Of a stretch of DNA of 64,000 nt, positions 3,092 through 52,490 are shown piece after piece. Location of the stretch: assembly GCF_030028105.1 (NCBI RefSeq), contig NC_092400.1:18104001-18168000 (forward strand). The letters run 5' to 3'. Positions within the stretch are counted from its first letter, which is position 1; each line of letters begins with the position of its first letter. The notes under the pieces were generated by a model. It had not been told where the DNA came from, did no database searches, and worked only from the letters and a program-made list of their open reading frames with translations. The stretch comes from Mobula birostris (Eukaryota). Both the position numbers and the translations under genes were made by a program.

Positions 3092-4033
3092 TTATACAGT
3101 GGTTGATCTGCAACAGTTTAAATTAAGACCAAGAGCTTTCTCCAAAGCATGTTGAAACTGCGAGGTTGAAAAATAGTAAATAATGGGATCGACCACACTG
3201 TTCAGATACGTTATAAACAACGTATTGTAAAATATATTCACTGCTGTGTGATACGACTTGCAGTCAGATGGACTTAGTTTAGTCACCAAAACCGCAACCA
3301 CAGCAACACTGGTGGGCAAGAAAAAAATGACAAAAACCGCAGCCACGGCTATCACAAGTTTCACAGTTCGCTTATATTTAGCCCGCATTCCAGCTTCCAT
3401 CTGCCGTAACCTCCAGATGATGGAGGACGTAGAGAACAGGATAACTGAAACTGGCAAAAGAAACTTAAAGAATATAAAAATAAAGTCAGTCCAAACTGTT
3501 GTGGGACTCAGAGCCTTGTTTATGCTGAAAGGCTCACAGTTTGTCAGGTTGTGTTGTTCGAAGAGATGTTTGTCTATCAGCAAGTGCAAGCAAATAGCCA
3601 CCGCTACAATCCACAGACCGCCTGCTATCATCACCGCACACCTTGTAGAGATCTTGTTTACCTTGTGGAGTGGATGGACCACCTTAAAATAACGATCGAT
3701 CGCAATAACCATGAGGAAAAAGATGCTGCCAATCCGGTTCAGGGAAATCATGAATATGTTCAGTCGACACAGTCCATCACCAAATCTCCAGTCCTTCCCT
3801 CGGATAAAATAAACAGCCCGAAAAGGTAGACAGCACATTAACAGAGTGTCCGCAATCATGAGATTCAGTGAATACACAATACTTGGTTTCCGCGACTTCA
3901 CATGAACACAAAAGATCCACAAAGCAATCGTATTTCCAGCAAGCCCGAGGATTAATGTGATAATAATTACGGGCGGGTTGTAGGATGAGTTAACATCTTC
4001 ACCAAAAGCACATTGCGGGGTCGAGTTCGCCAT
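3092..4033 (-). CDS. Hydroxycarboxylic acid receptor / oxoeicosanoid receptor-like class A GPCR, copy 1 (313 aa; C-tail shortened by a premature stop)
   Basis: Intronless 7TM ORF: GN (TM1), IAD..LPFR (TM2), CRL..NR.GS..DRY (TM3, Arg3.36), VVHP, ECL2 CEPF, FLP (TM6), YLNS..DPIIYYFS (TM7). Confidence 0.93.
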   Translation of the reverse strand: MANSTPQCAFGEDVNSSYNPPVIIITLILGLAGNTIALWIFCVHVKSRKPSIVYSLNLMIADTLLMCCLPFRAVYFIRGKDWRFGDGLCRLNIFMISLNRIGSIFFLMVIAIDRYFKVVHPLHKVNKISTRCAVMIAGGLWIVAVAICLHLLIDKHLFEQHNLTNCEPFSINKALSPTTVWTDFIFIFFKFLLPVSVILFSTSSIIWRLRQMEAGMRAKYKRTVKLVIAVAAVFVIFFLPTSVAVVAVLVTKLSPSDCKSYHTAVNIFYNTLFITYLNSVVDPIIYYFSTSQFQHALEKALGLNLNCCRSTTV

Positions 4034-4119
4034 TGTGCGAAAAAGTCAAGTTGTGTCCGGGGAGAGCAAACTCGATCAGAGACGAACAACATGTAAAGTT
4101 GATCTTCGAATGTGTTTGT

Positions 4120-4205
4120 TTCCCTGTGGGTGAAGTATATGGGCGGGGTGAAATAGTCAGAGCACCAATAAATTGTGCGATCGAATCATCAATTCCAGGA
4201 AAACT
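4120..4205 (-). promoter_or_regulatory. Candidate proximal promoter module: GC box, CCAAT, STAT/GAS site TTCCAGGAA
   Basis: gggcgggg 4141-4148, ccaat ~4165, ttccaggaa 4193-4201; conserved in all four paralogous upstream regions. Confidence 0.45.
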
Positions 4206-4334
4206 AGAAGCATCAGCGTTTAAATTAAGCAGCAAACAATGAAATATATTTAGCTTTCGTTGCCAGGCATAAAATTGTACAATACTTAGTTTTGCTGTTG
4301 AATGCTTGAATAATTTTATATTAAAATTAATGAG

Positions 4335-4570
4335 ACGTAATTTTATGCTGATTGGAGGAAAGTGTAGGGGGACGTCGGAGGCAGAGTTCTTTACGCAGCA
4401 AGGTTGGGTGCGAGGAACACGCTGTCAGGTTTGGTGGTAGAGGCAGATACATTAGGGGCATTTCAGAAACTGTTAGGCAGGCACATGGATGATAGGAAAA
4501 TGGAGGACTGTGCAGAAGGGAAAAGTCAGACTGATCTCAAAGTCGATTAAAATGTCGCCAACATTGTACT
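4335..4570 (+). mobile_element. CR1 3'-end fragment (paralogs ~19345-19520, ~19865-20090, ~28075-28295)
   Basis: gtggtagaggcagatacattaggggcatttcag...gcacatggatgataggaaaatggagg. Confidence 0.7.
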
Positions 4571-4934
4571 GTAATACGACATGTTCTTTAAAAAGGGGGC
4601 TGTTCTGTAATAGAAATCAACCCCAAAAATTATATCACTCTGTTATTGAAGTTATTCTTGCAAAATCTCCTGACGACAAATGATATCAAAATGCATTTGG
4701 ATAAGAATTAAAAACAGAAACGAAGAAAACTCCCAGCATGTCAACTATTGAAAGAAGAGCTTATGCTTCAGTGTGCAGGTCTTCCTTTTTTTGTTTCGAT
4801 TTCGGCAGTTTTTTGTTTTTTGACGTGGAGATGCCTCTCTGCACATCACCTGATATCAGCGAAGGTGCTCTATTTAACACACTCTTTTTATTTACAGGAA
4901 ATATAATAGAGACGTCCTCTGGTTTGGGGAAGTG

Positions 4935-5370
4935 ATCAGCCCGGAATGGGATCTGACAGCGAATTAACCAGAGACTAGATTCGGCGAATACACGACATTG
5001 TATTCGGATTTCATTATTTTTGAACACCAGGGGTATAGGTAGAGTAAATGCAAGCAGCGGTTTTCACTGAAATTGGGTGCGACGGCAATTAGATATCCTG
5101 GGCTCAGGGGGGAAACTGAAAAGTTTAAGGGGAACAGGAGGGGAAACTTCTTCACTCGGAGGGTCGTGAGAGTGTGGAACGAGCTGATAGCACAAGTGGT
5201 GCATGAAAGCTCAATTTAAAAGTTTAATAGAAGTTTGCATAGGTACGTGGATGGTAGAGCTGTGGAAGGCTATGGTACCGGCGCAGGTCAATGCGAACAG
5301 GCAGATTAAATGGTTTCCTACGCAATAGATAGGCCAAAGGGCATTTTCTGTCCTGTACGTTTCTATGTTT
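4935..5370 (+). mobile_element. CR1 3'-end fragment
   Basis: gggaaacttcttcactcggagggtcgtgagagtgtggaacgagctg (FF..RVV..WN.L motif) followed by a CR1-type tail. Confidence 0.75.
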
Positions 5371-5394
5371 CAGATTTTACATGAAGATAAAACA

Positions 5395-6545
5395 TCTACA
5401 AAGCAGTTGCATTTCTTACTAGTCCTAGGCCGATTGTTGTAATATTTACTGGTGGGCTGCGAGCAGAATTGACTACCTCGATGGAGGCACGTTGCTGGGC
5501 TGAATTGTCCATTGTTCCAAACGCCGCCGTAAACACAGTCACAGTCTCCGATACAAGAAAACTTATTCAAAGATGAAAATATCTGCATACAGCAAAATTC
5601 AGTACATCGGTAAGTTGTGTCCAAAATTTTCTTAGCAGTGCTGCAAAGATTTAACTCAATGAAATACATCCAGCAATATTAACAGAATTTAATAGCTACT
5701 CGATATGATATTACGTACATAAACCATTTTTTGTCCTATCAAAGCTATGAAACTTTCTTTGTTATTCAGGGTTCACTCCCAATTCAGTTGAAATGCACCT
5801 TCTCTACCTAAACTAAAGTTCCCCATTTGGAAGCCCACCCTACTGCTTCTCCTGTACAAACGGGTAATTTGGTCCAACAGGTGCCCTCAATGAGATAAGC
5901 AGAATATTACAGTACTCAAATCCATCTCCTTGATTATACAGAACTGCTGTTCCATACACTTTACTCACAGAGTACAGAGAGACCACAGTATTCCCAGTAT
6001 CGACTATCTGTTACCACAACGATCTGCTGAATGAAGGTTAAAAGTGATTTCTACTCTCCTTCATGCAACCTGGACATGATTTACCATGGTTGTAGGAGGG
6101 GAGGCAGCAATAGATCCTCGGGCCACACTCCCACATGGTGTTAGTAACGTGGTGAGGCAGTTCAGTCTGTATTCAAGTCAGTCACTGCTGCCCTACTCAT
6201 AGCAATAAATACCGGGCATACATATGCATGAACGCACTTAAGGCACAAATATATATGTGAGCACACACATGCAAACGCACAACCATGCATCAATCACAAA
6301 GTTCTTCCACATTCTAGTCACCCCAATGCAACTACCTGCATGCGTAAGTGTAAAATAATGGGACTACGGTCACCAGAAATATTTTGATTGGATTCTGGGG
6401 AGAAAAACAAACCTGCTGTCTCTCATGTCCTTGTTTGTAAAGATATTCTTCACAAGGAGTGTTCATATCTTTCAACACTGCCATCTTGTGTTGGGCGTCT
6501 ATGCTGCAAACAATGATCCACGAAAGTCATTTCCAACGAATTCAA
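5395..6545. repeat. Older, gene-less paralog of the duplicated unit (block Z plus block X without the CR1 insert)
   Basis: 5395-5670 resembles 14720-14985 and 23500-23770; 5862-6545 resembles 1195-1945 but is more diverged. Confidence 0.8.
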
Positions 6546-8974: not shown

Positions 8975-11089
8975 TCTTCTTCTTTTTTTTGTTTAATGGC
9001 GGTTGGCAACCAGCTTTCAGTGCATTACTGCCATCTGCTAGACTTGTGGTGTTCCAACCAAATATGTCCTGGAGTTCAAACAACAGGAATTCTGCAGATG
9101 CTGGAAATTCAAGCAACACACATCAAAGTTGCTGGTGAACGCAGCAGGCCAGTCAGCATCTCTAGGAAGAGGTACAGTCGACGTTTCAGGCCGAGACCCT
9201 TCATTCTGGAGTTCTCTACTTTAAACATTCTAGTTCAACCTGCAGTTATTTATTCGCATCACTCTGTAGTTCCAATTCTCGTGAATGCTTAATGCGCTCA
9301 TTAGATAATGCCGCAAACTGCTATTCTTCCCTAATTATGTCACGTTTTCGCGTAGTCGCATTACCTCAATTACATTGATTTCATCTACAACACTTGTAAG
9401 ACAAAAACCTTGTTAAAGAATAGTAATTATCACACGTTATACTTTCAAACTTCTTGTTTTGCCAAGTCTATCTGCTTTTTCAGGTTTTCCTTTATTTGGA
9501 TCGTAGCCTGCAGTTGATTGCTGAGACCTCGGAGTTCTTCTTCATTTGCTTCCGTGTTTTCATTTTATAATCTGAATGTAGATAATTCACTTTGCAACAA
9601 ATTCTTTTTCCTTTTGTATCCTTGTAATAATTTCCTCCATTTTCCAATCTCTTTCCAACTCACCGTTGTTCTTGTCGGGTACTTCTGTTTGTTGTTGTAG
9701 TTCTGCACATTTACCCTGGGCTTCAACCATAAAATCTGAGGATTTTCCTTAAGTTCTGAAACATTTCTTAAATTTTTGACCATTTGCAATAAGTATACTG
9801 CCATTGAGATTCCATCTCCCCTGCCTGTGAACTGTTGTATCCTCCATTCAGCATTTCTTTGACTTCTTCCCACCTAATTCCTTTAATACCAAGATACTTT
9901 TCAGCAGACTTGACGATAATTTTAATTTTCTCAGTCCTTTTGCTTGTTTGCGCTGAACAATTAATTACATCCACCATAAAAAGCATGAACTCCTTTCTAC
10001 TCATTAATAGTGTATCCTTATTTTTCATATTACAGCTCTCACAATTCACTAGTTTATTATTGCCTGTATTTGTTTGCTTGACAGCCTTTTTTCATCAAAT
10101 TCTTTCACTGCCTCCGCATAACTGATTCCTTGAGTTACTTTTACATATTGTATCTCAGCCGCCTTCTTGCTATAAATGCACCCTCGATAAGCTGCGCTGT
10201 GTTCCTCGCCACAATTGCAGCATTTCAGCCTAGCGCTCGCTTCACATTTCCCATATTCATGTATTCCAGCGCATCTCCCACATCTTTGTTTTTCTCTGCA
10301 GACCACCGCAATGTGCCCGAATTTCTGACATTTATAGCATCTTAAAGGCGGTGGTATATATATTCTAACCGCATAACACATATACCCTAAGTAAACATTA
10401 GTCGGCAATACCTCCATCAAAGTTAATCATTACCTATAAACTACCACACTTTTTCCCATTTCTTGTAACTTTCAAACATTTGGCCTCAATAATTTTTGCT
10501 CCTTTTATGTTCTGTTTAATCTCATCCATAGTAACTTTTGTTGATATCCCCAAAATAACTCCTTCAGTCCACTTTCTATTGTTGGGTATCAAGCATTGTA
10601 CTTCTTTGCTGTCTATTTTACATAAACATCACTTTACCTTGCTGAAAACTATCCCGACAAATCACTGATAGCGATCCATTTCATAAAGTCTTTGCTCCTT
10701 TAATCTCACCTAGAATTTTGTTGAGCATCTTCATCAAATGAATCAGGTTCCACTCACCAAATAACATCCCATCTTCACTTAGTTTTATAATTGCTTTAAT
10801 TTCATCTTCTTTCCATTGTTTTGCTGTCCTGCTTTGATCATCCACTGATTCCTCAGAGTTTGATATCCCGTACCTCTGCTTACTTTTCTTCCTCCTTTCA
10901 TTCTGTTCCTCTTTCCCACCGACCTTCATCTCCAGTTCACTTCCACTCTCGCCAAAAACTTCCTTCAACATGCTGGGCTCTTTCCTTGATGTTCTCTCTC
11001 TCTGCCATTTTCCAGTCATAACTCAACTTAACCACAGTTCACCAGACTCAGCACAGCCAGCCACCTATGCTAAATGCTGCATTGCAATC
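8975..11089 (-). mobile_element. I/Nimb-like LINE derivative: frameshifted gag-like ORF1 with three CCHC knuckles, ORF2 nearly all deleted, A-rich/(AAG)n tail
   Basis: TSD ccagcccctacact at 8961-8974 and 11090-11103; ORF 10049..10420 has CYKCQKFGHIAVVC, CGRCAGIHEYGKC, CCNCGEEHSAAYRGC; ORF2 start remnants LIANGQKFKK and WLKP near 9790-9715. Confidence 0.85.
9078..9205 (-). mobile_element. Penelope-like terminal-repeat insertion (truncated within the hammerhead core)
   Basis: 9-bp TSD ctggagttc (9069-9077, 9206-9214); reverse complement reads atgaagggtctcggcctgaaacgtcgactg. Confidence 0.8.
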
Positions 11090-14475: not shown

Positions 14476-14984
14476 AACGACCAGGTTCAACAACAGTTGC
14501 TACCCCCCAACCATCAAGCTCTAGAACAAAAGAGGATAATGACACTCATTATGTTTCTGCTGTTCCCACAACCAATGATCACACTTTACCTCGTTATTTC
14601 ATGTTCATCTTATTTAGTGCTATCTATTTTTATTTGCATCTGCACAATGGTTCCTGTGCTGTACTTCTCTATGATTTTAAATGAAATTATAATACTATAC
14701 CTATAAAGAGTTGTCTTTCTGATTAGACCGAGGATGATTGTTGTATAATTACTGGTGGGCCATGAGAAGAATTGACAGCCTCACTAGAAACACATTCCTG
14801 GGTTGATTTCTCCATTGTTCAAAACACAAAGGTAAAAACAGTCACAACATTTCAGAGACAAGTGAATTTATTCAGAGTTATCATATATGAAGTTCTGCAT
14901 ACAGCAAAATTCAGAGCATTGATAATTTTCATTCAAAGTTTATTAACTTTTCTCCCAGAAAGCATAAGATTCAATGCAATGTAT

Positions 14985-16162
14985 GCAAATGGCAATGTTA
15001 CAACAGTCATGGTGGAATTCAATATTCAGGTAGATTGGGTTGGTGCTGCTGGATTACTGGAGTGAGGGGGGATTTCTAGAGTGCCTATGAGATGGCTTTC
15101 TAGAGCAGCTGGTGGTTGAGCCAGCTAGAAGACCAGCTATTCTGGATTGAGTGTTGTGCAATGAACCAGAATTGATGAGAAACCTTAAGGTAAAAGAAAC
15201 CTCAGGGGCAAGTGATCATAATTTGATTGAATTCACCCTGAAACCTGAGAAGGAAAACCTAAAGTCAGATCTATCAGTATTACAGTGGAGTAAAGGGAAT
15301 TACAGAAGCATGAGAGAGTTGTCCAGAATTGATTGGGAAAAAAACACTGGCAGGGATGACAGCAGAGCAGCAATGGCTGGAATTTCTGGAAGCTATGCCG
15401 AAGACTGAGGATATATACATCCCAGAGAGGACGAAGTATTTTAAAGGAAAGATGACAAACCATGGCTAACAAGAGAAGTCAAAGCCAACATGAAAGCCAA
15501 AGAGAGGGGATATAATAGACTGAAAAGTAGTGGGAAATTAGAGGATTGAGGAGCCTTTAAAAAGCAACAGAAAGCAATAAGGATATCACTAGGAAGGTAA
15601 GGATGGAATACAGAAGCAAGCTAACCAATAATATTGAAGAGTTTAATACCAACAGTTTCTTAAGATACATAAAGTGTAAAAGAGAAGCGAGAGTGGATAT
15701 TGAACCATTGTAAATGATACTGGAGTGGTAGTAAAGGGTGGGGGGGGGTCTATGAAATAGCAGAGAAACAGAGTAATTATTTGGCATCCATTTTTACTGT
15801 GGAAGACACTAGCAGGATGGTGGAGGCTCCAGGGACAGGGGTCATGAAGTGTGTGAAGTTACCATGACCAGAGAGAAGGTTCTTGGAAAGCTGGAAGGTC
15901 TGAAGGTAGGTAAGTTACCTAGACCAGATAGTGTACACCCCAGGGGTCTGAAAGAAGTGTCTAAAGAGATTGTGGAGGTATTATTCATGATCTTTCAAGA
16001 ATCACTAGATTCTGGAATGATCCTGGAAGATGGGAAAATTGCCAATGTCACTCCACTCTTCAAGAAAGGTGAGAGGAAGAAAAAGGAAACTATAGACCAG
16101 TTCATCTCATCTCAGTGTTGGGAAGACGTCAAGAGTTGATTATTAAAGATGAGGTCTCAGGT
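14985..16162 (+). mobile_element. CR1 ORF2 fragment (duplicate of 1-1192)
   Basis: ORFs 15151..15408 and 15849..16139 nearly identical to 178..483 and 880..1170. Confidence 0.9.
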
Positions 16163-18031
16163 GGCTGGTAAATTGGTCCAGCAGATGCCCTCAGTGAAAT
16201 GAGCAGAATATTATTCAAATCCATCCAATTAAATATATTTAATTGCAGTTCCATGCACTTTGCTCACAGAGTACAGAGAGATAACAACATTCCCCGAGTA
16301 GGTTTTCTGTTACCACAAATATCTGCTGAATGGAAGTTAAAAGTGAGTTCTGCTCTCCTTCATGCAGCCTGGCCATGACTCCCCATGCTTCTGGGAGGAG
16401 AGGTAGCAACAGTCTCTCAGGCCACACTCCATAATGATGTTTCTAATGTGGTGAGGCAGTTCAGTCCATATTAAAGTCATTCGCTGCTGCACAGCTGCCG
16501 TACTCATAGTTTTCAATAACTAGCGTACCTCTGCATACAAGCATGCATGCACTTAAATCACAAACATATATGTGAGCACACACATGCACACACGACCGTG
16601 CATCACAAAGTTCTTCCACATTCCAGCCTCCCCAATCCAACTATCTGCATTGTGCAATCGTGCACGTATGCATATACATTTTGAAGCCCAGGCAGGTGTG
16701 TGTGAAATAGTGGAATAAAGGACACCAGAAATATTTTGATTGGATTCTGTGGGGGTGGGGGAGATGTGGAAGCAGGTTGTGGAAAGAACCTGCTATCTCA
16801 GTTTCTCACATACCCTTGTTTGTAAAGACATTCTTCACTAGGAATGTCGGTGTTCATTCCTTTCAACACTGCCCTCTTGTGTTGGAGTCCTTTGCTGCAA
16901 ACAATGATCCACATCAGTCATTTCCAGAGAGTTAGAGCAAGTAAATCGCTGTCGGTTGACATTCCCAGATGGAGCCGACCAGGTTAGCAAGATCATTTTA
17001 ACATTAGTATACCCGAGAGGTTTCTACAATACTCTGGTAACTTCATTGACACCCATAAGACATAGGAGCAGAACTGGGCTATTCGGCCCATCAATTCTGC
17101 TCCATCATTCCATCATGATTGATTTATTATTCTTCTCAACCCCATTCTCCTGTCACCTCCCCATAACCTTTGATGTTCTGATTAATCAAGAACCCATCAG
17201 CCTCCACTTTAAAACCACCCAATGATTTCACCGCCAGTCATCCGTGGCAAAGAATTCCACAGACTCTTCACCCTCTGGTTACAGAAGTGCATACTCATCT
17301 CTATTGTAAATGCTGATCATCCATCTTCAATACAGATAACCTCTTTTCATTCCAGATTTCAAATTTGGAAATAAATTCCCTAATTTTGAACCAGCGCTTC
17401 CGTTCCTATCTCCAGCTCACTCGGAGATGTTTTTTTTAAGAATCCGGTTCCAGTACCATCAGTATATGACTGCATGCAGTTTGCCTCCATCCCAGCAACT
17501 CCTAACATCACTTTCCTCCTGACTGAAAGTCCACAGGTAGGGTTGTTCTTGGATGAATAGATTACTGCTGATTCTGATGGACAGTCCAGCAACCTTCTAC
17601 CACTATAACGAGTAGAAGCCAGCTACAAAAGAGACACGGAGGCTGAATTCATCTGTGGAAGCAGTTGCTTATATGGAAAGAGGATATCTTAAATACCCAT
17701 ACACAACACAGAACACTTTCCTTTAAACCAGGGTTTCCAACATGTGGTCCACCACCCCCCGTTTAATTGTAAGGCCCCATGGCATACAAAAGAATGGGAA
17801 AACTGCTTGAAAGTAAGGAAAAGTTTCTTAAGGAATAAGCTCTGAAATAAACTAAGCTTCGTAGAGATAAGATGCAATTTCTTCTCTACATAAAGGGTAG
17901 TGTCTTACGGAACTTGTTCGTTAAGATCGATTTATCCCTCACAAAAATTTTAACATTTGATCACTTTCTCCTTTCGGGCGCATTAATCAGCTTTGCTTTG
18001 AGGGCATCTAGTTCACACAGAGCGGGAGCCA

Positions 18032-19039
18032 TCAGAAAGCGGTTACAGAGCTCGTTTGCTGATCCAAACTCTGGCGCCCTTGAGATGTTCCTTGTTCAGT
18101 GGCTGATCTGCGACAGCTTAAATTAAGAGGAAGCAGAGCTTTCTCCAAACCATCTTTAAACTGCGAAGTAGAAAAATAGTAAATAATGGGATCGACCACA
18201 CTGTTCAGATACGTTATAAACAACGTATTGTAAAAGATATTCGCTGCTATGTGATACGACTTGCAGTCAATTGACCTTCTCAGTTTAGTCACCAAAACCG
18301 CGACCGCAGCAACACTGCTGGGCAAGAAAAAAATGACAAAAACTGCAGCCACGGCTATCACAAGTTTCACAATTCGCTTATATTTAGCCCGCATTTCAGC
18401 TTCCATCTGCCGTAACCTCCAGATGATGGAGGACGTAGAGAATAGGATAACTGAAACTGGCAAAAGAAACTTAAAGAACATAAAAATAAAGCCAGTCCAA
18501 GCTGCTCTGAGACTCAGATCCTTCGTTATGCTGAAAGGCTCACAGTTTGTCACGTTGTGTTGTTCGAAGTGATGTTTGTCTGTCAGCAAGTGCAAGCAAA
18601 TAGCCACCGCTACAATCCACAGACTGCCTGCTATCTTCACCGCACACCTTGTAGAGATCTTGTTTACCTTGTGGAGTGGATGGACCACCTTAAAGTAACG
18701 ATCGATCGCTATAACCATGAGGAAAAAGACGCCGCCAGTTCGGTTCAGGGAAATCATGAATTTGTTCAGTCGACACAGTCCATCACCAAAACTCCAGTCC
18801 TTCCCTCGGATAAAATAAACAGCTCGAAAAGGTAGACAGCATAGTAACAGAGTGTCTGCAATCATGAGATTCAGTGAATATATAATACTTGGTTTCCGCG
18901 ACTTCACATGAACACAAAAGATCCACAAAGCAATCGTATTTCCAGCAAGCCCGAGGATGAATGTGATAATAATTATGGGCGGGTTGTAGGACGAGTTAAC
19001 ATCTTCAGCAGGAGCACATTGCGGGGTCGAGTTCGCCAT
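18032..19039 (-). CDS. Hydroxycarboxylic acid receptor / oxoeicosanoid receptor-like class A GPCR, copy 2 (335 aa)
   Basis: Full-length intronless 7TM ORF with Arg3.36, DRY, CEPF, DPIIY; N-terminal and ECL3 cysteines. Confidence 0.95.
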   Translation of the reverse strand: MANSTPQCAPAEDVNSSYNPPIIIITFILGLAGNTIALWIFCVHVKSRKPSIIYSLNLMIADTLLLCCLPFRAVYFIRGKDWSFGDGLCRLNKFMISLNRTGGVFFLMVIAIDRYFKVVHPLHKVNKISTRCAVKIAGSLWIVAVAICLHLLTDKHHFEQHNVTNCEPFSITKDLSLRAAWTGFIFMFFKFLLPVSVILFSTSSIIWRLRQMEAEMRAKYKRIVKLVIAVAAVFVIFFLPSSVAAVAVLVTKLRRSIDCKSYHIAANIFYNTLFITYLNSVVDPIIYYFSTSQFKDGLEKALLPLNLSCRRSATEQGTSQGRQSLDQQTSSVTAF

Positions 19040-19124
19040 TGTGCGAAAAAGTCAAGTTGTGTCCAGGGAGAGCAAACTCGATCAGAGACGAACAATCTGT
19101 AAAGTTGATCTTCGAATGAGTTTG

Positions 19125-19210
19125 TTCCCCTGTGGGTGGAGTATATGGGCGGGGTGAAATAGTCAGAGCACCAATAAATTGTGCGATCGAATCATCAATT
19201 CCAGGAAAAC
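19125..19210 (-). promoter_or_regulatory. Candidate proximal promoter module of copy 2 (GC box, CCAAT, GAS)
   Basis: gggcgggg ~19147, ccaat 19171, ttccaggaa 19199-19207. Confidence 0.45.
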
Positions 19211-19511
19211 TAGAAGCATCAGCGTTTAAATTAAGCTGCAAACAATGAAATATATTTAGCTTTCATTGCCAGGCATAAGATTGTACAATACATAGTTTTG
19301 CTGTTGAATGCATGAATAATTTTATATTAAAAATTAATGAGGGTGCGTAATTTTAAGCTGATAGGAGGGAAGTGTGGGGGTGGGGCAGAGTTTTATACGC
19401 AGCAAGGTTGGGTGCGAGGAACACGCTGCCAGGTTTGGTGGTAGAGGCAGATACATTAGGGGCATTTCAGAAACTGTTACGAAGGCACATGGATGATAGG
19501 AAAATGGAGGA

Positions 19512-23322: not shown

Positions 23323-23769
23323 TATATTGGGACTTAGGCCAAAGTCCATAATGGTACCTGTGAGTGAAAGGTGCAGGTCAATTGGAGTAGGCAGTTTAAA
23401 TGGTTCCACATGGACTACTTGGGCCAAAGGGCTTGTTCCTGTACTATACTTTCCTGTCTCTATGATTTTAAATGAAAATGAAATATCTACAAAGAAGTTG
23501 TATTTCTGATGACACCAAGGATGATAGTTCTAATAATCACTGGTGGGTTATGAGAAGAATTGACAACCTCACTAAAGACACATTGCTGGGCTGATTACTC
23601 CATTGTTCAAAACATGAAGGTAAACACAGTCACATTGTTTCAGAGACAAGTAAACTTACTCAGAACTATCAGATATGAAGTTCCATGTACAGCAAAATTC
23701 ACAGCATTGATAAGTTGCATTCAAAGTTTATTAACTTTGCTCCTAGAAGGCATAAGATTTAATGCAATG

Positions 23770-26745: not shown

Positions 26746-27753
26746 TCAGATTGTTGTTATAGAGCTCATTTGCTGATCCACAGTCTGCTCCTCTTTGGAT
26801 GTTTCTTGTTCAGTGGCTGATCTGGAAAAACTTAAATTAAGACGAACTAGAGCTTTCTCCAAAGCATGTTGAAACTGCGAAGTAGAAAAATAGTAAATAA
26901 TTGGATCGACCACACTGTTCAGATACGTTATAAACAACGTATTGTAAAAGATATTCGCTGCTGTGCGATACGACTTGCAGTCGGATAGACTTCTTAGTTT
27001 AGTCACCAAAACCGCAACCACAGCAACACTGGTGGGCAAGAAGCAAATGACAAAAACCGCAGCCACGGCTATCACAAGTTTCACAGTTCGCTTATATTTA
27101 GACCGCATTCCAACTTCCATCTGCCGTAATCTGCAGATGATGGAGGACGTAGAGAACAGGATAACTGAAACTGGCAAAAGAAACTTAAAGAATATAAAAA
27201 TAAAGTCAGTCCAAATTGCTGGGGGACTCAGAGCCTTGTTTATGCTGTAAGGCTCACAGTTTGTCACGTTGTGTTGTTCGAAGAGATGTTTGTCTATCAG
27301 CAAGTGCAAGCAAATAGCCAACGCTACAATCCACAGACCGCCTGCTATCATCACTGCACACCTTGTAGAGATCCTGTTTACCTTGTGGAGTGGATGGACC
27401 ACCTTAAAGTAACGATCGATCGCTATAACCATGAGGAAAAAGACGCTGCCAATCCGGTTCAGGGAAATCATGAATATGTTCAGTCGACACAGTCCATCAC
27501 CAAAAATCCAGTCCTTCCCTCGGATAAAATAATCAGCCCGAAAAGGTAGACAGCACACTAACAGAGTGTCCGCAATCAGGAGATTCAGTGAGTACACAAT
27601 ACTTGGTTTCCGCGACTTCACATGAACACAAAAGATCCACAAAGCAATCGTATTTCCAGCAAGCCCGAGGATGAATGTGATGATAATTACGGGCGGATTG
27701 TAGGACGAGTTAACATCTTTACCAGGAGCACATTGCAGGGTCGAGTTCGCCAT
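26746..27753 (-). CDS. Hydroxycarboxylic acid receptor / oxoeicosanoid receptor-like class A GPCR, copy 3 (335 aa)
   Basis: Full-length intronless 7TM ORF: LPFRADY, NRIGSVFFL..DRY, CEPY, CFLP, YLNSVVDPIIYYFS. Confidence 0.95.
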   Translation of the reverse strand: MANSTLQCAPGKDVNSSYNPPVIIITFILGLAGNTIALWIFCVHVKSRKPSIVYSLNLLIADTLLVCCLPFRADYFIRGKDWIFGDGLCRLNIFMISLNRIGSVFFLMVIAIDRYFKVVHPLHKVNRISTRCAVMIAGGLWIVALAICLHLLIDKHLFEQHNVTNCEPYSINKALSPPAIWTDFIFIFFKFLLPVSVILFSTSSIICRLRQMEVGMRSKYKRTVKLVIAVAAVFVICFLPTSVAVVAVLVTKLRSLSDCKSYRTAANIFYNTLFITYLNSVVDPIIYYFSTSQFQHALEKALVRLNLSFSRSATEQETSKEEQTVDQQMSSITTI

Positions 27754-27854
27754 TGTGCGAAAAAGCGGTCACACAGTCAAGATGTTTCAGAGGGGAGCAC
27801 ACTCATTCGAAGCTGAACAACCTTATAAACTGGCCTTTTTCGAATGAGTTTGTT

Positions 27855-36125: not shown

Positions 36126-36351
36126 AGATGGTTAAAAACTATAGGTTTAAGGTTAGGGAGAAGAGATTTCACACTGATCCGCTGATGCTCACCCTTCCTG
36201 ACTGCAGCCAGTTTGTAACAGACAGGCAGTTTCAGGTAAAACCCTACTGTCACAAACAGTACGATGGTGCAGCCAACCCAACCTCCACTGGGGAGTTCAC
36301 ACGTTCCCCACCCCCCCAACCCCTCCCCCGTGATTCTATAAGATTCATCAG

Positions 36352-37708: not shown

Positions 37709-37719
37709 ATGATTTACAT

Positions 37720-38165
37720 ATGATAAGATTTAGCAGCAGAATCAGGCCATTTGGTCATTGAGTCTGCACCACCATTCAATCATGCCTACAGTTTTTTTTT
37801 CAACCAATTTCTCCTGCCTTCCTGCCCTGTACACATTAACCCATTAATGAACAGATAAATCTCTGCCTTAAGTATTACTCATTGACTTGGCCTGCACCAT
37901 CCACTGCGGGAAAAAAACTCCACGGAATCTCTCCTCTCTGACTGAAGAAATTCCTCCTCATCTCAAGTTCCAAAGGATATCCCTTTACTCTCAGATCCTA
38001 AAATCTCCTAATGATGGTAACATTCTCTCCATATCCACTCTTTCTAAGCCTTTCAGTATCTGGTAGCTATTGAAGAGATTCAAACACCCTTCCCCACCAC
38101 ATACCTCTGAACTCCACCAAATACAGGCCCAAAGCCATCAGCTGCTCCTCAGTCATTAAACTCAT
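37720..38165 (-). mobile_element. CR1 3'-end fragment
   Basis: agcagaatcaggccatttgg...gaagaaattcctcctcatctc. Confidence 0.7.
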
Positions 38166-42960: not shown

Positions 42961-42964
42961 TCTC

Positions 42965-44571
42965 AGACACCTCCTCTTACTTACCCCTTAATAAGGACCT
43001 CTTTCAGGACAAGTAGGATACCATCACCAACCTCATCAATTCTGGAGATCTCCCATCCACTGCCATCAACCTCATAAATCCCTTAGCGTGCACTGCTAGT
43101 TGCTACCTCCTACCCAAGATCAAAAAGTCTGACTGTCCAGGTAGGCCCATTGTCTCTGCTTGCTCCTGCCCCACTGAACTCGTGACTGCATATCTCGACA
43201 CCATTTTACCTCCCTTGGTTCATTTCCTTCCCACCTACATCCATGACTACACATGCTCTGGATCTCCTGAACAATTTTCAACTCTCTAGCCCTGATCACC
43301 TCATTGTCACCATAGATATCCAGTTACTATACACTCTATAGCCCATCAAAAAGGCCTCAAAGCTCTTTACTTCTTTTTTGACAACAGATCAGACAAATTC
43401 CCCTCCACCACCACCCTTCTCCTTCTGGTAGAGCTGGCCCTCACCCTTAACAATTTCCCTTTCACCTCCTCCCACTTTCTCCAACTCAAGGTGGAGCCAT
43501 GGGTACCTGCATGGGCCATCTCCAGCTATACCTGCCTTTTCATTTGCTAAATGGGACAGTCTATGTTTCAAGCATCCCTGCTAAGGCTCCCCAACGTTCG
43601 CTGTGCTTCCTTGATGACAGTATTGGTGCTGCTTCATGCACCCATGAGGAGCCGTCAACATCATCAACACTGCCTCCAACTTCCATCTGTTAAATTCACC
43701 CTGGCCCCTTTCTCAGTCTCGAGATACAAAATGTCCACCAACGTCTTTCATAAACCTACCAAGTCCCGCAGCTATCTTGACTATACCTCTTCCCACCCTG
43801 TGTCCTGTAAAAATGTTATTCCTTATTCTCAGTTTCTTCGCCTCTGCTGTATTTGTTCCCAGGATGAGGACTCCCTTTTCAGGACATCAGAGATGTCCTC
43901 CTTCTTCAAATAACAGGGTTTCCATTCCTCCACCATTGATGCTGGCCTCACCTTATCTTCCTGCCACCTTAATTGGGGTAGAGTTCATCTTGTTCTTGCC
44001 TACCACCTCATAAGCCTCGGCTTCTAGCACATCATTCTCCACAACTTCTGCCGTATTCAATGAAACCCTACCAAACACTTCTTTACCTTGACTCTTTGCT
44101 TTCCATAAGGATTGCCACCTCTACAATTATCATGGCCAACTGTCTCTCCCCACTAACCTCCCTCCTGGCACTTATCCCTGCAAGCAGAAGAAATTTTACA
44201 CCTGTGCACTCACCTCCTCCCTCACCTCTATTCAGGACCCCAAATAGTCCTTCCAGGTAAGGCTAAACTTCATTTGTGAATCTGTTGGGGGTCACCTACT
44301 GTATCCCATGCTCCCGATGTGGCCTCCTCTTACCTTAATGAGACTTTTCCCTACTCGCCTTTCACTTTCCCCTGGTGCCCTTCCTCCTTCCTGGTTTTCC
44401 ATGGCCAACTGTTCTCTCCTATCAGATTCCTTCTTCTCCAGCTCTTTATCTTTTCCACCTGTCACCTCCCAGCTTCTTACTTCATCCTCCCTCCCCCACC
44501 CACCTGGCCAGCTTTCCCTCCACCCACTTTCTTATTCTGGCTTCTTCCCCCTTCCTTTCCAGTCCTGATGA
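42965..44571 (+). mobile_element. Penelope-like element: degenerate RT, start of GIY-YIG endonuclease, pyrimidine-rich 3' region ending in CTGATGA
   Basis: YLLPKIKKSDCPGRPIVSACSCPTE (~43105-43180), GAMGTCMG, HKPTKSRSYLDYTSSHPVSCKNVIPYSQFLRL, CESVG. Confidence 0.9.
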
Positions 44572-47035: not shown

Positions 47036-47044
47036 CACCCCTCT

Positions 47045-47572: not shown

Positions 47573-48204
47573 AAGGTAAGCCTTTAATTTGAACTGTGAA
47601 TAGCTCAGGCATCAGTATCCTGTGATCCCTGTGGAGAACCATGAGCCAATATGAAGATAATTCATTTCATTTCCCTCTTTTTTTTCTGTTATTTAGCCAG
47701 ACCTCTATCCATGCTATGAGATCTTGTCCTATGCTGTCTGGATTACCTATGTATACTACTTCTACTACTTTCCCTTTATCCAGCCTGCTCATTTAATGCA
47801 CAAAGAACTCTGACAACAAACAAAATCTCCCTTTCATGAAACTACATATATTGACTCTGCTTGATGATTACGAATGCTTTGCTTTTTCTACGTTAATAAT
47901 TGAATCTGCCATTTTCTCAGATTTTAGTGTCCTCCTCTGTTCTCCAAAACAGGAGTTACTTTGCAGAATTCCAGTCTGCTGGGGCCTTTCCAGAATCTTG
48001 AGAATTTTGCAAGATCATAAGCAACGTATCCATCATTTCTGTCACCTCTTTTAGAACCTAGACGTAAGGTCTCAAGTCCAGGGTTTCGTCAGCCTTTAGT
48101 CCCATTAATTTGCTTCATATTTCCTCCAATGTTTTTGAATCAGACTCCAAATCAGAATCAGGGTTACTATCACTGCAATATGTTGTGAAAATTGTTGTTT
48201 TGCA

Positions 48205-49235
48205 GCAGCTTCCATTGCCAGTTCAGAGTACTTGGTCTTTTTCCTCTCATAAGCTTCTTCAACACCATCTTCCCATGGTACTGTCAATCCCACAGCACAT
48301 ACCAGCTTGGCTGTAGTGGACCACAGGACCATGTCTGGCCGGAGTGTTGTAGTCGAAAGTCTGGGGGAAACACAAGCTTTTTTTATCAAGTCCACGTCCA
48401 TTTTCCAATCCCGAGCAACCTGCAGAAAGCTTACCTCTTTTGATGTTATATTGTGCTCTGGACGTTGGCCGGCTGGTACAAATTGTGCAATGTGAACATT
48501 TCTTGCCGATGATTGTGGTGATTTTGTGGTGATTCGCCTCCATTCCAAGATTGATGCCAGCGGTCTGAGAAATTGGTTATGCTGCCAAGTGTACTGCTCC
48601 TGGCTGAGGCTCGTGGTGCATCCTGTTGAAATGTACCTTAGTAATCCAGCTACTTGACAAAGTCTTCTCCCCACCACTAGTTCAGGTTCTGGGGTGTGGG
48701 TAGGAGGTCATAAGTGGCTCTGATGACAAAACTTAGCCGAGATCCCTCCATCTCCCAGATGTCACGCCAGCTGAGTTTCGCCCAATTAATCCACTGGCCC
48801 TGCTTGGCCATTCAGACGGCCCTGGCGTGTCGCTCTGCCTCCTCCTGTCTTCTCAACTCCTCCACCACGAGCCGTCTCTTCTGCACTGATGTTGCCTTGT
48901 GCCATTGAGGAGCCTTTGTGACAAGCCTGAGCCCAGCTGTCCCATGTTAGACTTGGCCAACCACATCCTGAAGCAAAGAGCAAACTTAGCACTCTGAACG
49001 GCTTCAGATGGGGTCCACTTCCTCCCCGTTGCCACATGGGGTGCCACTGTTCGAATAACAGTATCTTCAGATTCAGTGAGGGTAATGACCAACCTTGCTT
49101 TGGTGCATTTGAATTCTTCCGCAAGACTTGCAATTGGTAATTCTAATTTGCCGTTCCCGTACAGTCCAACAGGACTTAAGCATCGTGGAAGTCCAAGCCA
49201 CTGTTTCACATATGCGCTGACCACTCTTTCGAGTG
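48205..49235 (-). mobile_element. Hero-type (R2 superfamily) non-LTR retrotransposon fragment with restriction-like endonuclease
   Basis: KQWLGLPRCLS..GLYG, TGRKW, YTW.HNQ.LR.LA, RPDMVLWS...LTVPWEDGVEEAYERKKTKYSEL. Confidence 0.85.
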
Positions 49236-49319
49236 AAAAATGATACCGTATCCATTAAATAGGGGCCATGGACAATTCTGATTTGATGGAGATGGACATG
49301 AAAGCACAGAGGAACATCT

Positions 49320-49812
49320 GGAGAAATTTCTGAAATGCCAGTTCACTGCTGTTGTTACTGCGCAGTCCAGAATCTCCCGGAGGGAAGGCCTCAAAATCCC
49401 CGGCTTTGCCTGCTGTTGGCAACCGAGATTGAGGTCGAATCGTTCAGACAGAGATGGCGCTCAGTACTCGGTGGCGGAGAGCTGATCGGAGGCTCGAAGT
49501 TTTCGGATGACTCAGAGATGGACTGTGGTTGGGCATGGCAGGGACAGATTTTCTTCCTTCTCCCGTCTGCGTGAGATGTGGGACATTTGAGAGACTTTGA
49601 ACTTTTGACCGTGGTCATGGACTTCTTCATCAAGTTATGGTATTGTTGCACTGTTGTAACTATATGTTATAATTATGTGGTTTTGTCAGTTTTTTCAGTC
49701 TTGGTCTGTCCTGTGTTTTGTGATATCACACTGCAGGAAAGATTGTATCATTTCTTAATGCATGCATTACTAAATGACAATAAAAGAGGACTGCGTGTCT
49801 TCATAATCTAAA
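49320..49812 (+). mobile_element. Short non-autonomous retroelement-like repeat
   Basis: CpG-rich body, GT-rich 3' part, aataaa near the end. Confidence 0.5.
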
Positions 49813-50179
49813 CAAAATAACCAATGGTTTGGGTAAAGAGGTGGGACAAAATGATTAAATAAAAGAAATTCCATGCTGCGGTTCTGGATAGCACACTAGT
49901 ATTAGCTAAGTGTTTAGCTGTTAAAATGCTTCATATTTATTTTGGAATATTGATAAAAAGGCACAAAAAAGGCATATCTACAGATTAATATTGCAGATTT
50001 TTAACTGATATTTCTCTACTTTTTTAATTCTAGTTTTCCTCTTTGAGTTGAGGATGACTCATTTCTGTTCCGCTTAATTGGGTTCCGGGATAGTTGAAGA
50101 GCCCCACCATGGGAAATTCAAACTTTCCCACAGACAAAAAAGCAGGTGTTAAATGATGAGTTGTTTAGGATGCTCTGTG

Positions 50180-50745
50180 TTATTTTCACTGTTTATGCTT
50201 GGTCACCACATACTTTGGTCATACACTTATCCTCAGTACCCCTGAGAAGCCCCTATCCATTTTGAACAGTGATGGGCCAAGGATTCACATGCATTGATGG
50301 GGAATCTATACTTTCTCAAGTAGAGTTTGAAAAGGTCCTTGAATTTTTTTTTGAAAACTTAATCATTCACAATAATGTTGCCTATTTTGGGAGACTGGCA
50401 TGGAACAGATAAGGCTGACTCACTGGAGAAGTTTAAATGTGAGGAGAGCTTCATTGCTGGTGAAGTTGTCCAGGTGAGGAGAACACATCGGTTTACCAAT
50501 AGTATTCTGTGCAGGATTCAGAGGATTTTTATGGAAACCACATTGATGCTACTTCTTCAGTACTTTGTAGTGTCTCCTGTAGGTTGTCCATGTCCTCAAG
50601 ACAAACAGGCAGGTGGGAATCATGGTAAACTTGAGCATGGAGATAATAATGAAGTCTTGCCTTCAAATGATCCTCTCTATGTGGACCAAGGAATGAGTGA
50701 GCACATTAAAGGTGTGGGAGATTTTGCAGATTTGCTAAAGGCTTA
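50180..50745 (-). mobile_element. Ancient RTE-clade LINE remnant
   Basis: Minus strand TWTTYRRHYKVLKK*HQC (cf. ETWTxYRRHxKxLExxHQ). Confidence 0.6.
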
Positions 50746-51443
50746 AATGAATGTACAAGAAGTAATCAAGGGAATGTCACAATGTCACTCTTTTTTTGCC
50801 AAGGAAATTGAACACAAATATTGGGAGATCATGCTTCATTGATATCAGCAGCTGTTGAGATCATATCTGGAGGATGGAGTATAATGTGGATCTCCAATTT
50901 GAAAGTGTTGGAAGTGTTTCCGAGAAAGTATATTCGACTAAAACTTGAAATGTGATGATTATCTTATAAGGAAAGGTCGGAAGACCTGGAATGTATCTGC
51001 TGGAGTTTAGAAGAGAGAAAGGTGAATTGATTAAAAACATAACAGCTCACATGGTCTTGACAGGATGAATGTGGAAGGGACATTTCTTCATTATGAGAAT
51101 CCAGAACTAAAGATAACTTGTTAAAATTAAGATTTTCTCTACTTAAGACAACACTCAACTTGCCTCACTTCCATTATGATAACTCTGAAACTCTGTACAA
51201 TGTGCAGAATTTGTAGTAATTCATTTTGCAAATGGATCAGTTTAGTAAGGAGCTCTTGGTTCCGGTTCACAATCAGCAACCATGTGACCAAATAACCACT
51301 AACTTCAGATAAAACCTCCTGAATATTCTGGGTTTGTTTTAGCTACACCCATAAACTATGACATATTATGGAAATACTCTTTAATAGACTGCGTTCTTTC
51401 GCTTCCTCCCACACCTCTTGTAACATTTGCAACTCTCTCCACG

Positions 51444-52490
51444 ATGGATAATGAAACACATGTATGCCCTTTAGTCAAGGAAATTTATTCAGCCTACAAT
51501 CCACCGATACTTATTTTAACATTTATCTTTGGATTAACTGGAAATATGATTGCCTTGTGGATTTTCTGTTTTCACGTTAAATCCTGGAGACCAAACACCG
51601 TCTATTCACTGTGCCTGGCGATTGCCGACACTCTGCTGATCTGCTGTCTGCCATTTCGAGCCGATTACTACATACGTGGGAAGAACTGGATTTTTGGTGA
51701 TGTTGTGTGCCGTCTGAAGATATACCTGATGTTTCTGAACCGGACAGAGAGCGTTGTTTTCCTTACAGTTATGGCACTTGATCGCTATTTCAAAGTGATC
51801 CATCCTCACCATAACGTGAACAAGATCTCTACAAGGACTGCAGTGAAGGTATCACTGGTTCTCTGGTTTCTAACAATGTTGATTTGTTTGCACTTTCTGG
51901 TAGAACCTCGTACCTTCACACATCACAATGTAACTCACTGTGAGCCATTTAACATAACTCAGCCTCTAAGCCCCACAGCATTTTGGACTAATAATATTTT
52001 CATTGTTTTCAAGTTTATTTTACCAGCTTCAGTGATCCTGTTCTCCACATGCTGTATTATCTGGAGGCTGAAGCAGATGAAATCTGAAATGAGGGTTAAA
52101 TATGAACGAGCTATGAGGCTTGTGATAGTTGTGGCGGTAGTGTTTCTCATCTGCTTCCTACCGAGCAATATTGCTGTAATCGCCGTTTTAATTTCAAGCA
52201 ATTTAAAAGACTGTAAGTTATTTGACATCTGCGCTCAGATATTCTACAATACACTGTGCATAACCTATTTGAACAGTGTGCTGGACCCGGTTATTTACTA
52301 CTTCTCAAGTTCAACATTTAAAGAAACTTTGAAGAAAGCTCTTATTTCTCATAATATCAGATTATTCAGATCAGGAACAAAGCAACCATTACATCCAAAG
52401 CAAGAAATCCAACAAGCTGTTGAACCTAAAAGGTCTTCAAGTTGCAATACCTTTAATCATTTTCAAACGGAGTCAACAGGGAGTATATGA
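51444..52490 (+). CDS. Hydroxycarboxylic acid receptor / oxoeicosanoid receptor-like class A GPCR, divergent copy 4 (348 aa)
   Basis: Intronless 7TM ORF: ALWIFCFHVKSWRPNTVY, LPFRADYY, NRTESVVFL..DRY, CEPF, CFLPS, YLNSVLDPVIYYFSS. Confidence 0.96.
   Translation: MDNETHVCPLVKEIYSAYNPPILILTFIFGLTGNMIALWIFCFHVKSWRPNTVYSLCLAIADTLLICCLPFRADYYIRGKNWIFGDVVCRLKIYLMFLNRTESVVFLTVMALDRYFKVIHPHHNVNKISTRTAVKVSLVLWFLTMLICLHFLVEPRTFTHHNVTHCEPFNITQPLSPTAFWTNNIFIVFKFILPASVILFSTCCIIWRLKQMKSEMRVKYERAMRLVIVVAVVFLICFLPSNIAVIAVLISSNLKDCKLFDICAQIFYNTLCITYLNSVLDPVIYYFSSSTFKETLKKALISHNIRLFRSGTKQPLHPKQEIQQAVEPKRSSSCNTFNHFQTESTGSI

What the first reader, a model, noticed from the sequence alone, without database searches (positions are those of the whole stretch)
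3092..52490. Four-gene HCAR/OXER1-like receptor cluster with a shared Lys5.46 charge reversal: possible lineage-specific metabolite or lipid sensor family
Seen: all four keep Arg2.60 (LPFR) and Arg3.36 (NR), but TM5 reads FFKFLLP or VFKFILP, and TM6 after FLP has no Arg. Known (recalled from the human sequences): HCAR1, HCAR2 and OXER1 have Glu at 5.46 (LEFFxP); Arg3.36 binds the ligand carboxylate in HCARs; HCAR1/2 have Arg near 6.55, which OXER1 lacks. Inference: these receptors bind a carboxylate with a remodelled, more basic pocket floor and a hydrophobic TM6, so they may detect something other than lactate, beta-hydroxybutyrate or niacin. Elasmobranchs rely heavily on ketone bodies, which makes an expanded family here worth deorphanising.
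Basis: partly seen in the sequence, partly recalled or inferred. Interest (0 to 1): 0.7.

Follow-up and report, generated by a model that had tools for sequence, protein, structure and literature searches.

The report
Shark-and-ray acid receptors lacking resting lock
These four genes belong to a 23-copy array of lactate-receptor relatives seen so far only in sharks and rays; they keep the residues that grip an acid but have replaced those that hold the human receptor at rest, so they likely sense a different, bulkier acid and are predicted to switch on more easily.

Summary
Observation confirmed: four open single-exon HCAR-like genes, each with Arg2.60, Arg3.36, Lys5.46 and no Arg6.55. They are 4 of 23 copies (15 intact) between DENR and KNTC1, the human HCAR locus, not OXER1's, beside one ordinary Glu5.46/Arg6.55 copy. 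The family spans sharks, skates and rays. Lys5.46 occurs in 58 of 80 family rows and 0 of 249 other HCAR/OXER1/GPR31 rows, but changes about 14 times on the tree, so it is ancestral, not essential. More fixed are a one-residue TM5 insertion (80 of 80), His5.39Thr, Ser45.52Pro and loss of Arg6.55; the HCAR1-type acid site stays invariant. In published human structures Glu5.46 is the resting partner of Arg3.36, and His5.39 and Arg6.55 tie down the ECL2 lid. Best reading (0.5): carboxylate sensors without lock and latch, likely for bulkier acids, evolving by birth and death. Ligand, signalling and side-chain direction are untested; ketone sensing has no direct support. The scan noted this array before on a nearby window of the same genome (e1-9810220). 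New variant of a known kind.

The parts
3092..4033 (-). HCAR-like GPCR gene 1 (P0001, 313 aa), subfamily B; tail about 20 aa shorter than its sisters because of an earlier stop
   Evidence: (similarity to P0003 runs on past the stop)
3464..3466 (-). Lys190 (5.46) codon AAG of gene 1
18032..19039 (-). HCAR-like GPCR gene 2 (P0002, 335 aa), subfamily B; extra Lys at 3.29, Gly at 5.40, Ala at 6.55; near-identical to three copies outside the window
18470..18472 (-). Lys190 (5.46) codon AAG of gene 2
26746..27753 (-). HCAR-like GPCR gene 3 (P0003, 335 aa), subfamily B; folded as a seven-helix receptor whose best 29 structural matches are HCAR1-3
27184..27186 (-). Lys190 (5.46) codon AAG of gene 3
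51444..52490 (+). HCAR-like GPCR gene 4 (P0004, 348 aa), subfamily A; the only family copy on the + strand, about 250 kb from its nearest sisters, so likely an inverted moved duplicate
52011..52013 (+). Lys190 (5.46) codon AAG of gene 4
5369..5512 (-). decayed 5' fragment of a family gene (about 48 codons, one stop)
14744..14815 (-). decayed 5' fragment of a family gene (24 codons)
23442..23603 (-). decayed 5' fragment of a family gene (54 codons, three stops)
1..4936 (.). duplicated block around gene 1; 94% identical to 14987-19519 and 85% to 23772-28634, the blocks around genes 2 and 3
   Evidence: self blastn

Best explanation
The four genes are members of an old shark-and-ray branch of the hydroxycarboxylic acid receptors, tandemly expanded to 23 copies at the DENR-KNTC1 locus, which keep the HCAR1-type acid-binding residues but have replaced the lock and latch residues of TM5, TM6 and ECL2, and which therefore likely sense carboxylic acids bulkier than lactate and are predicted to activate more easily. 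Shown here: locus, copy number, family limits, residue states. Taken from published human structures: the ligand carboxylate binds Arg3.36 and Tyr7.43, helped in HCAR1 by Arg2.60 and Glu45.51; at rest Arg3.36 points down onto Glu5.46; His5.39, Ser45.52 and Arg6.55 tie the ECL2 lid to TM5 and TM6. Inferred: Lys5.46 (or the neutral Asn, Gln, Thr, Met that often replace it) removes the resting partner and would push Arg3.36 towards its ligand-ready pose; His5.39Thr, Ser45.52Pro, Arg6.55Val and the extra TM5 residue would loosen the lid and open a greasy side pocket between TM5 and TM6, so the likely ligands are medium-sized hydrophobic monocarboxylates of microbial, dietary or lipid origin, signalling through Gi. 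Lys tunes activation; it is probably not a second ligand anchor. Copies are born and lost quickly, as in receptors that track a shifting set of outside molecules.
For: Locus: DENR at C36:17.75 Mb and KNTC1 at C36:18.30-18.32 Mb bracket the array, HAAO is on C9; the human cluster is flanked by KNTC1 and DENR (PMC13237431). Family: 9 of 9 sampled members form one clade at 100/100, sister to the ordinary elasmobranch copy at 90/86. Kept site: Arg2.60 77 of 77 filled rows, Arg3.36 79 of 79, Glu45.51 80 of 80, Leu7.39 80 of 80, Tyr7.43 79 of 80. Changed together: extra TM5 residue 80 of 80 against 0 of 158; His5.39 0 of 80 against 229 of 249; Ser45.52 2 of 80 against 241 of 249; Arg6.55 0 of 80 against 182 of 249; Glu5.46 1 of 80 against 182 of 249. 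Roles in human receptors: Arg111-Glu196 ionic lock in apo HCAR2 and His189-Ser179 bond (PMC10682194); Arg6.55 holds ECL2 and does not touch ligands (PMC10516952; PMC11873900). Named OXER1 rows also lack Arg6.55 (8 of 8). Selection: dN/dS 0.12-0.23 between old subfamilies, 0.30-0.91 within recent ones; 8 of 23 copies broken; outer half of subfamily B richer in amino-acid change than the rest (61:15 against 53:30, p 0.023). Mammalian HCA2 is reported to shift towards microbial acids by such changes (PMC13217857 abstract).
Against: No ligand, signalling or expression test exists. The model gave no coordinates, so the direction of Lys190 was not measured, and the extra TM5 residue could turn the helix face. 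The lock is described in one structure paper and listed as a network contact in another; a third treats Glu196 as uncharged in its simulation; no Glu196 mutant was found. In human receptors loss of Arg6.55 lowers activity (about 100-fold for HCAR2; about half for HCAR1), which argues against easier activation. Arg2.60 narrows the HCAR1 pocket and favours small agonists, which argues against bulkier ligands on that side. The 26 pocket positions themselves vary less than the rest among the copies (ratio 0.5 in B, 0.2 in A), and subfamily A shows no outer-half excess (p 0.27), so ligand diversification between copies is weakly supported. Many bony-fish and amphibian HCARs have also lost Glu5.46 or Arg6.55.
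Confidence: 0.5

Rival explanations
1. Lys5.46 is a second positive anchor: the receptors bind a doubly charged ligand (dicarboxylate, or an acid with a sulfate or phosphate) between Arg3.36 and Lys5.46.
For: Lys is ancestral and kept in 58 of 80 rows across sharks and rays; the pocket also loses Glu1.42 (0 of 76 filled rows against 159 of 249) and often gains Lys3.28 (42 of 79); bulky agonists of HCAR2 reach an extension towards TM5 (PMC10682194).
Against: About 14 changes away from or back to Lys on the tree, mostly to neutral residues; Gln in 2 of 15 intact copies here; 67% of transmembrane columns are better conserved, whereas the known anchors are invariant.
Confidence: 0.15
2. The array replaces OXER1 and GPR31 in this animal and senses oxidised fatty acids such as 5-oxo-ETE to call white cells to wounds and infections.
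For: Searches of the own genome with a turtle OXER1-like protein and a tarsier GPR31 found no better match than this array; named OXER1 rows share Arg3.36-or-Asn and lack Arg6.55; joining the family to the OXER1 clade is not rejected (p-AU 0.12); zebrafish hcar1-4 acts as OXER1 (PMC9973399).
Against: Locus is DENR-KNTC1 while HAAO is on another contig (that HAAO flanks human OXER1 is recalled); best tree keeps OXER1 apart at 99/96; OXER1 rows keep Glu5.46 (8 of 8) and Ser45.52 (8 of 8) and lack Glu45.51. The genome search scores only the best candidates, so absence of OXER1 is not shown.
Confidence: 0.15
3. They are still lactate or ketone-body receptors; the changes compensate each other or shift sensitivity to suit the high ketone levels of these fishes, and the extra copies are largely dosage and drift.
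For: The whole HCAR1-type site (Arg2.60, Glu45.51, Arg3.36, Tyr7.43, Leu7.39, basic ECL1 residue) is invariant; pocket positions vary little between copies; elasmobranchs rely on ketone bodies (PMC12866614); within-subfamily dN/dS below 1 with many broken copies fits relaxed constraint.
Against: An ordinary copy with all human-type residues persists beside the array in sharks and rays (9 rows), leaving the family free to diverge; five pocket-side changes arose on one branch; Ser45.52, whose backbone contacts HCAR ligands, is Pro in 74 of 80.
Confidence: 0.2

Closest known systems
HCAR1 (GPR81, lactate receptor)
   Same: Same locus (DENR-KNTC1); Arg2.60, Glu45.51, Arg3.36, Leu7.39, Tyr7.43 and a basic ECL1 residue (Lys80, human Arg79); same fold.
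   Different: Lys for Glu5.46, Thr for His5.39, Pro for Ser45.52, Val/Ala for Arg6.55, Tyr for His7.36, one extra TM5 residue; 23 copies instead of one; in the tree it groups with a second fish/lungfish/salamander HCAR lineage (87/96), not with mammalian HCAR1.
HCAR2/HCAR3 (GPR109A/B; beta-hydroxybutyrate, niacin, 3-hydroxyoctanoate)
   Same: Best sequence and fold matches in the PDB (E 1e-77); Arg3.36, Tyr7.43, Phe7.35; same locus; recent duplication and ligand shift are known in this group (PMC6532841, PMC13217857).
   Different: Arg instead of Leu/Val at 2.60, Lys instead of Trp/Ser in ECL1, Glu instead of Ser/Ile at 45.51; no Arg3.36-Glu5.46 pair; HCAR2/3 are mammalian duplicates (PMC6532841).
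OXER1 (5-oxo-ETE receptor; zebrafish hcar1-3/hcar1-4)
   Same: No Arg at 6.55; Arg2.60 and Arg3.36 as in the mammal and turtle rows; 35-40% identity to a turtle OXER1-like protein.
   Different: Other locus; separate clade in the best tree; OXER1 keeps Glu5.46 and Ser45.52 and lacks Glu45.51.
Ordinary elasmobranch HCAR copy (P0081 group; L025 in this genome)
   Same: Same locus, likely sister clade (90/86), same acid site.
   Different: Single copy; keeps Glu1.42, His5.39, Ser45.52, Glu5.46, Arg6.55 and normal TM5 length.

Membership tests
Class A GPCR, delta branch, HCAR/OXER1/GPR31 group | Seven-helix fold with N1.50, D2.50, DRY, W4.50, P5.50, FxP6.50, DPxxY | tested here: met
   (pLDDT 81.5, pTM 0.79)
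HCAR family | Position between DENR and KNTC1 | tested here: met
   human order from PMC13237431
HCAR family | Arg3.36 and Tyr7.43 carboxylate site | tested here: met
   79 of 79 and 79 of 80 rows
HCAR family | Ser45.52, His5.39, Arg6.55 holding the ECL2 lid | tested here: not met
   2 of 80, 0 of 80, 0 of 80
HCAR family | Glu5.46 as resting partner of Arg3.36 | tested here: not met
   1 of 80; but also absent from 67 of 249 other rows
HCAR family | Gi signalling on hydroxy-carboxylic acids | not testable with these tools
   needs cell assays
HCAR1 orthologue (one-to-one) | Groups with mammalian HCAR1 in a tree | tested here: not met
   groups with the ordinary elasmobranch copy and a second HCAR lineage, moderate support 90/86 and 87/96
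HCAR1 orthologue (one-to-one) | Arg2.60-Glu45.51-His7.36 network | tested here: inconclusive
   Arg and Glu invariant, 7.36 is Tyr in 69 of 80 and His in 5
OXER1 | Position beside HAAO (recalled) | tested here: not met
   HAAO matches lie on C9, the array on C36
OXER1 | Member of the OXER1 clade | tested here: inconclusive
   separate in the best tree (99/96) but sistership not rejected (p-AU 0.12)
OXER1 | Response to 5-oxo-ETE | not testable with these tools
   needs cell assays

The most novel reading that the evidence does not exclude
Sharks and rays built a private, fast-turning repertoire of up to two dozen acid sensors by reversing the charge that parks the key arginine: the receptors sit pre-armed, with high basal Gi tone, and read a new chemical class (oxidised lipids or microbial acids) in place of the OXER1 and GPR31 receptors that this genome seems to lack. 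They would be natural mutants that test the Arg3.36-Glu5.46 lock of the human niacin and lactate receptors.
Probability: 0.15. Interest if true: 0.7.

Novelty: new variant of a known kind. Interest (0 to 1): 0.42.

Why it matters
The family gives a natural series (Lys, Gln, Asn, Thr, Met, Glu at 5.46, beside an ordinary sister receptor in the same genome) for testing whether the Arg3.36-Glu5.46 contact seen in apo HCAR2 really sets the resting state of a drug-target family; no mutant of that Glu was found in the papers searched. It also shows that the HCAR locus, three genes in humans, is a two-dozen-gene birth-and-death array in a ray, which points to an unknown ligand class that matters to sharks and rays. 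The genes are already annotated as HCAR-like in many shark and ray genomes, and tandem GPCR expansions are common, so without a ligand the surprise is moderate.

Tried and rejected
OXER1 identity: rejected on locus; the tree alone does not reject it. Four-gene or species-specific cluster: rejected. Lys as an alignment artefact: rejected, it is four residues before Pro5.50 in all four and the insertion lies further up the helix. Heterodontus Glu5.46 (P0077) as the ancestral state: it nests inside subfamily A (98, quick tree), so a reversion or conversion is more likely. Loss of the ordinary copy in this ray: L025 has a one-base shift near codon 92 and no other stop before codon 302, and contigs of two related runs lack the extra base, so a sequencing error or very recent change is likelier than an old loss. 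Side-chain direction: the structure tool returns no coordinates and none lay in the data folder. Expression: no RNA holder listed; contigs of three runs only guessed to be RNA, from relatives, cover most of the gene 3 frame (856, 918 and 1252 bases), which does not show transcription. Chimaera: no holocephalan row among those listed (120 of 133, 120 of 190, 120 of 418 shown), although PMC6532841 lists an elephant shark HCA1 in a supplement, so the family's age limit is open. Positive selection on the pocket: not seen. Glu196 mutants: none in the 15 papers listed of 264 or in two readable supplements of PMC10043007; its third file could not be read. An OXER1 structure: none among the 60 shown or the 5 papers.
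Full report
Observation. The window holds four open single-exon frames of 313, 335, 335 and 348 aa at the stated places. Their best solved relatives are human HCAR1-3 (E to 1e-77; next families near 1e-40). All four have Arg72 (2.60), Arg100 (3.36), Lys190 four residues before Pro5.50 (codon AAG) and Val or Ala at 6.55. A model of gene 3 from an 81-row alignment is a seven-helix bundle (pLDDT 81.5, pTM 0.79) with TM5 as one helix, 177-211; its best 29 fold matches are HCAR structures. The tool gives no coordinates, so the direction of Lys190 rests on homology with Glu196.

The array. A search of the own genome gave 39 matches, 27 of them on contig C36 between 17.81 and 18.28 Mb; they collapse to 24 loci. 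Twenty-three are of the window's type: 15 intact (three of these with altered or shortened tails) and 8 broken by stops or shifts. In order: eight subfamily-A loci (3 intact), one older single copy, twelve subfamily-B loci (9 intact, among them genes 1-3), gene 4 (type A, inverted), another older single copy. The 24th (L025) is an ordinary receptor with Glu5.46 and Arg6.55 and a one-base shift that contigs of two related runs lack. Only the best candidates are scored, so 23 is a floor. DENR lies at 17.75 Mb and KNTC1 at 18.30-18.32 Mb, the two genes that flank the human HCAR cluster (PMC13237431, passages). HAAO, recalled as the neighbour of human OXER1, is on C9. Genes 1-3 sit in duplicated blocks of about 5 kb, 85-94% alike, each with a decayed 5' gene fragment nearby.

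The family. The 76 nearest database proteins are from sharks, skates and rays (named rows; 2 unnamed), the closest from Mobula. They form one clade in all three trees: 48 of 91 rows (quick, 100), 80 of 87 rows (quick, 100), 9 of 39 rows (careful, 100/100). Subfamily A holds both sharks and rays (98), so the first duplication is older than their split. In the careful tree the family is sister to the ordinary elasmobranch copy (90/86), and both group with gar, bowfin, bichir, lungfish and salamander proteins (87/96) apart from the lineage of mammalian HCAR1 (80/97) and from OXER1 (99/96). These deeper branches are only moderately supported, and forcing the family to join OXER1 is not rejected (p-AU 0.12); the locus decides. 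Trees used hand-picked subsets of the proteins held; one salamander row labelled G there (P0339) is named HCAR3-like by its source.

Residues. Over 80 family rows and 249 other HCAR, OXER1 and GPR31 rows (the rows are the hits and a selection of named or full-length hits, clustered at 90%, rich in mammals and not independent): Lys5.46 58 against 0; Glu5.46 1 against 182. Other states in the family are Asn 8, Gln 5, Thr 4, Met 2, Leu, Phe and Glu 1 each; Lys versus not-Lys needs 14 changes on the tree. Among the 15 intact own copies 13 have AAG and 2 CAG. Position 5.46 is less conserved than 67% of 215 transmembrane columns. More fixed marks: 14 residues from Trp5.38 to Pro5.50 in 80 of 80, against 13 in 154 of 158 and 14 in none; His5.39 0 of 80 against 229 of 249; Ser45.52 2 against 241 (Pro in 74); Arg6.55 0 against 182; Glu1.42 0 of 76 against 159; Leu3.29 2 of 79 against 240. 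Kept: Arg2.60 77 of 77, ECL1 Lys 79 of 79, Arg3.36 79 of 79, Glu45.51 80 of 80, Leu7.39 80 of 80, Tyr7.43 79 of 80. Outside the family 67 of 249 rows also lack Glu5.46 (Ser 32, Gln 27), so losing it is not rare; Lys is.

What these positions do in human receptors (passages read, not whole papers). In apo HCAR2 Arg111 forms an ionic lock with Glu196; agonist breaks it and Arg111 turns up about 120 degrees to the carboxylate; His189 bonds Ser179 (PMC10682194). Another paper lists Glu196 in the Arg111 network and describes the 6.5 A move of Arg111 (PMC10043007). Arg251 touches no ligand but holds the ECL2 backbone, and its loss cuts activity about 100-fold; that paper's simulation leaves Glu196 uncharged (PMC10516952). 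In HCAR1 the acid binds Arg99 and Tyr268 with Arg71 and Glu166; Arg71 narrows the pocket; His177 links to Ser167; Arg240 fixes ECL2 (PMC12040280; PMC11873900). So the family keeps the TM2-TM3-TM7 acid site and has replaced every named member of the lock and of the TM5-TM6-ECL2 latch.

Mechanism (inferred). Without Glu5.46 the key arginine has no parking partner; Lys would repel it upwards, and neutral residues would merely free it, which explains why Lys is often replaced by neutral residues but almost never by Glu. Loss of His5.39, Ser45.52 and Arg6.55 with an extra TM5 residue would loosen the lid and leave a hydrophobic wall, as in OXER1 rows, which also lack Arg6.55. I therefore expect Gi-coupled sensors of medium-sized hydrophobic monocarboxylates (0.5). 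Against: Arg6.55 loss weakens human receptors, Arg2.60 favours small ligands, and nothing was assayed. Rivals: lactate or ketone receptor with drift (0.2), dianion receptor using Lys (0.15), OXER1 stand-in (0.15). For the last, own-genome searches with OXER1-like and GPR31 proteins found nothing closer than this array, with the caveat that only 118 of 433 and 125 of 667 candidates were scored.

Selection. Pairwise dN/dS (Nei-Gojobori, codons 8-297, 15 intact copies) is 0.12-0.23 for six pairs between old subfamilies, 0.32-0.89 within A (6 pairs) and 0.30-0.91 within B (35 of 36 pairs; one had no silent change). A tree-free allele count shows more amino-acid change in the outer half of B than in the rest (61:15 against 53:30, p 0.023; L013 left out as a near-copy of L012), not in A (p 0.27), and less in 26 pocket positions. 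This is birth-and-death evolution with a conserved core; it does not show positive selection.

What is known. Many of these proteins are annotated HCAR1/2/3-like by NCBI. PMC6532841 (passages and a supplement search) reports at least one HCA1 orthologue in cartilaginous fishes and lists one each for elephant shark and whale shark; PMC6504862 (passages) names fish HCAR-like and OXER1-like sets. Zebrafish hcar1-4 acts as OXER1 (PMC9973399, passages). Reliance of elasmobranchs on ketone bodies is stated in PMC12866614 (passages). Ligand shifts of mammalian HCA2 towards microbial acids are reported in PMC13217857 (abstract and passages). No paper on a shark or ray HCAR array or on Lys5.46 came up (20 of 30 listed; 0; 0); subscription journals are mostly outside the library, and genome-paper supplements could list the expansion. 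The scan itself noted this array on a nearby window of the same genome (e1-9810220, unreviewed), with a similar reading; it is not independent evidence.

Verdict. Real, old and clade-wide; a new variant of a known receptor family, with a clear and cheap test but no ligand yet. Interest 0.42.

Noticed in passing
L025:1365-2270 (G000:C36:18.28 Mb): The one ordinary HCAR copy has a one-base shift near codon 92; contigs of runs X12 and X13 lack it. A sawfish protein of this group is also flagged low quality by its source, and none was listed for stingrays or skates, so the ordinary copy may be fragile in rays.
   Followed up: partly
G000, whole genome: No OXER1 or GPR31 orthologue was found outside this array; the HAAO neighbourhood on C9 was not read.
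   Followed up: partly
G000:C9:38.57-38.64 Mb: The same HAAO exons match twice or three times, suggesting a tandem duplication of HAAO.
   Followed up: no
tree: Jawed vertebrates seem to have two old HCAR lineages; the shark and ray genes fall with the one that lacks mammalian members, and no member of the mammalian HCAR1 lineage was found in this genome.
   Followed up: partly
window 18032-19039 and G000:C36:18.00, 18.02, 18.04 Mb (L013, L016, L012): Gene 2 has three near-identical copies about 21 kb apart (dS 0-0.01 among the intact ones), one with a stop: very recent duplications, or an assembly that repeats haplotypes.
   Followed up: partly
window 33760-34431, 36080-36751, 37061-37729, 54089-55229, 63105-63473: Broken reverse transcriptase and endonuclease frames of LINE-type elements (label from recalled motifs, not searched).
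   Followed up: no
window 48105-49254 (-) and 10049-10426 (-): Decayed frames resembling a site-specific non-LTR element and a zinc-knuckle (CCHC) ORF1 protein (recalled motifs, not searched).
   Followed up: no
bony-fish rows (for example P0096, P0099, P0100): A teleost HCAR group has Ser5.46, Gln6.55 and Lys at 5.40, an independent rebuilding of the same corner with a Lys about two turns higher.
   Followed up: no
window 43467-43574 (-): Weak match (E 9e-4, 36 codons) to TM2-TM3 of the ordinary copy; possibly another remnant or chance.
   Followed up: no
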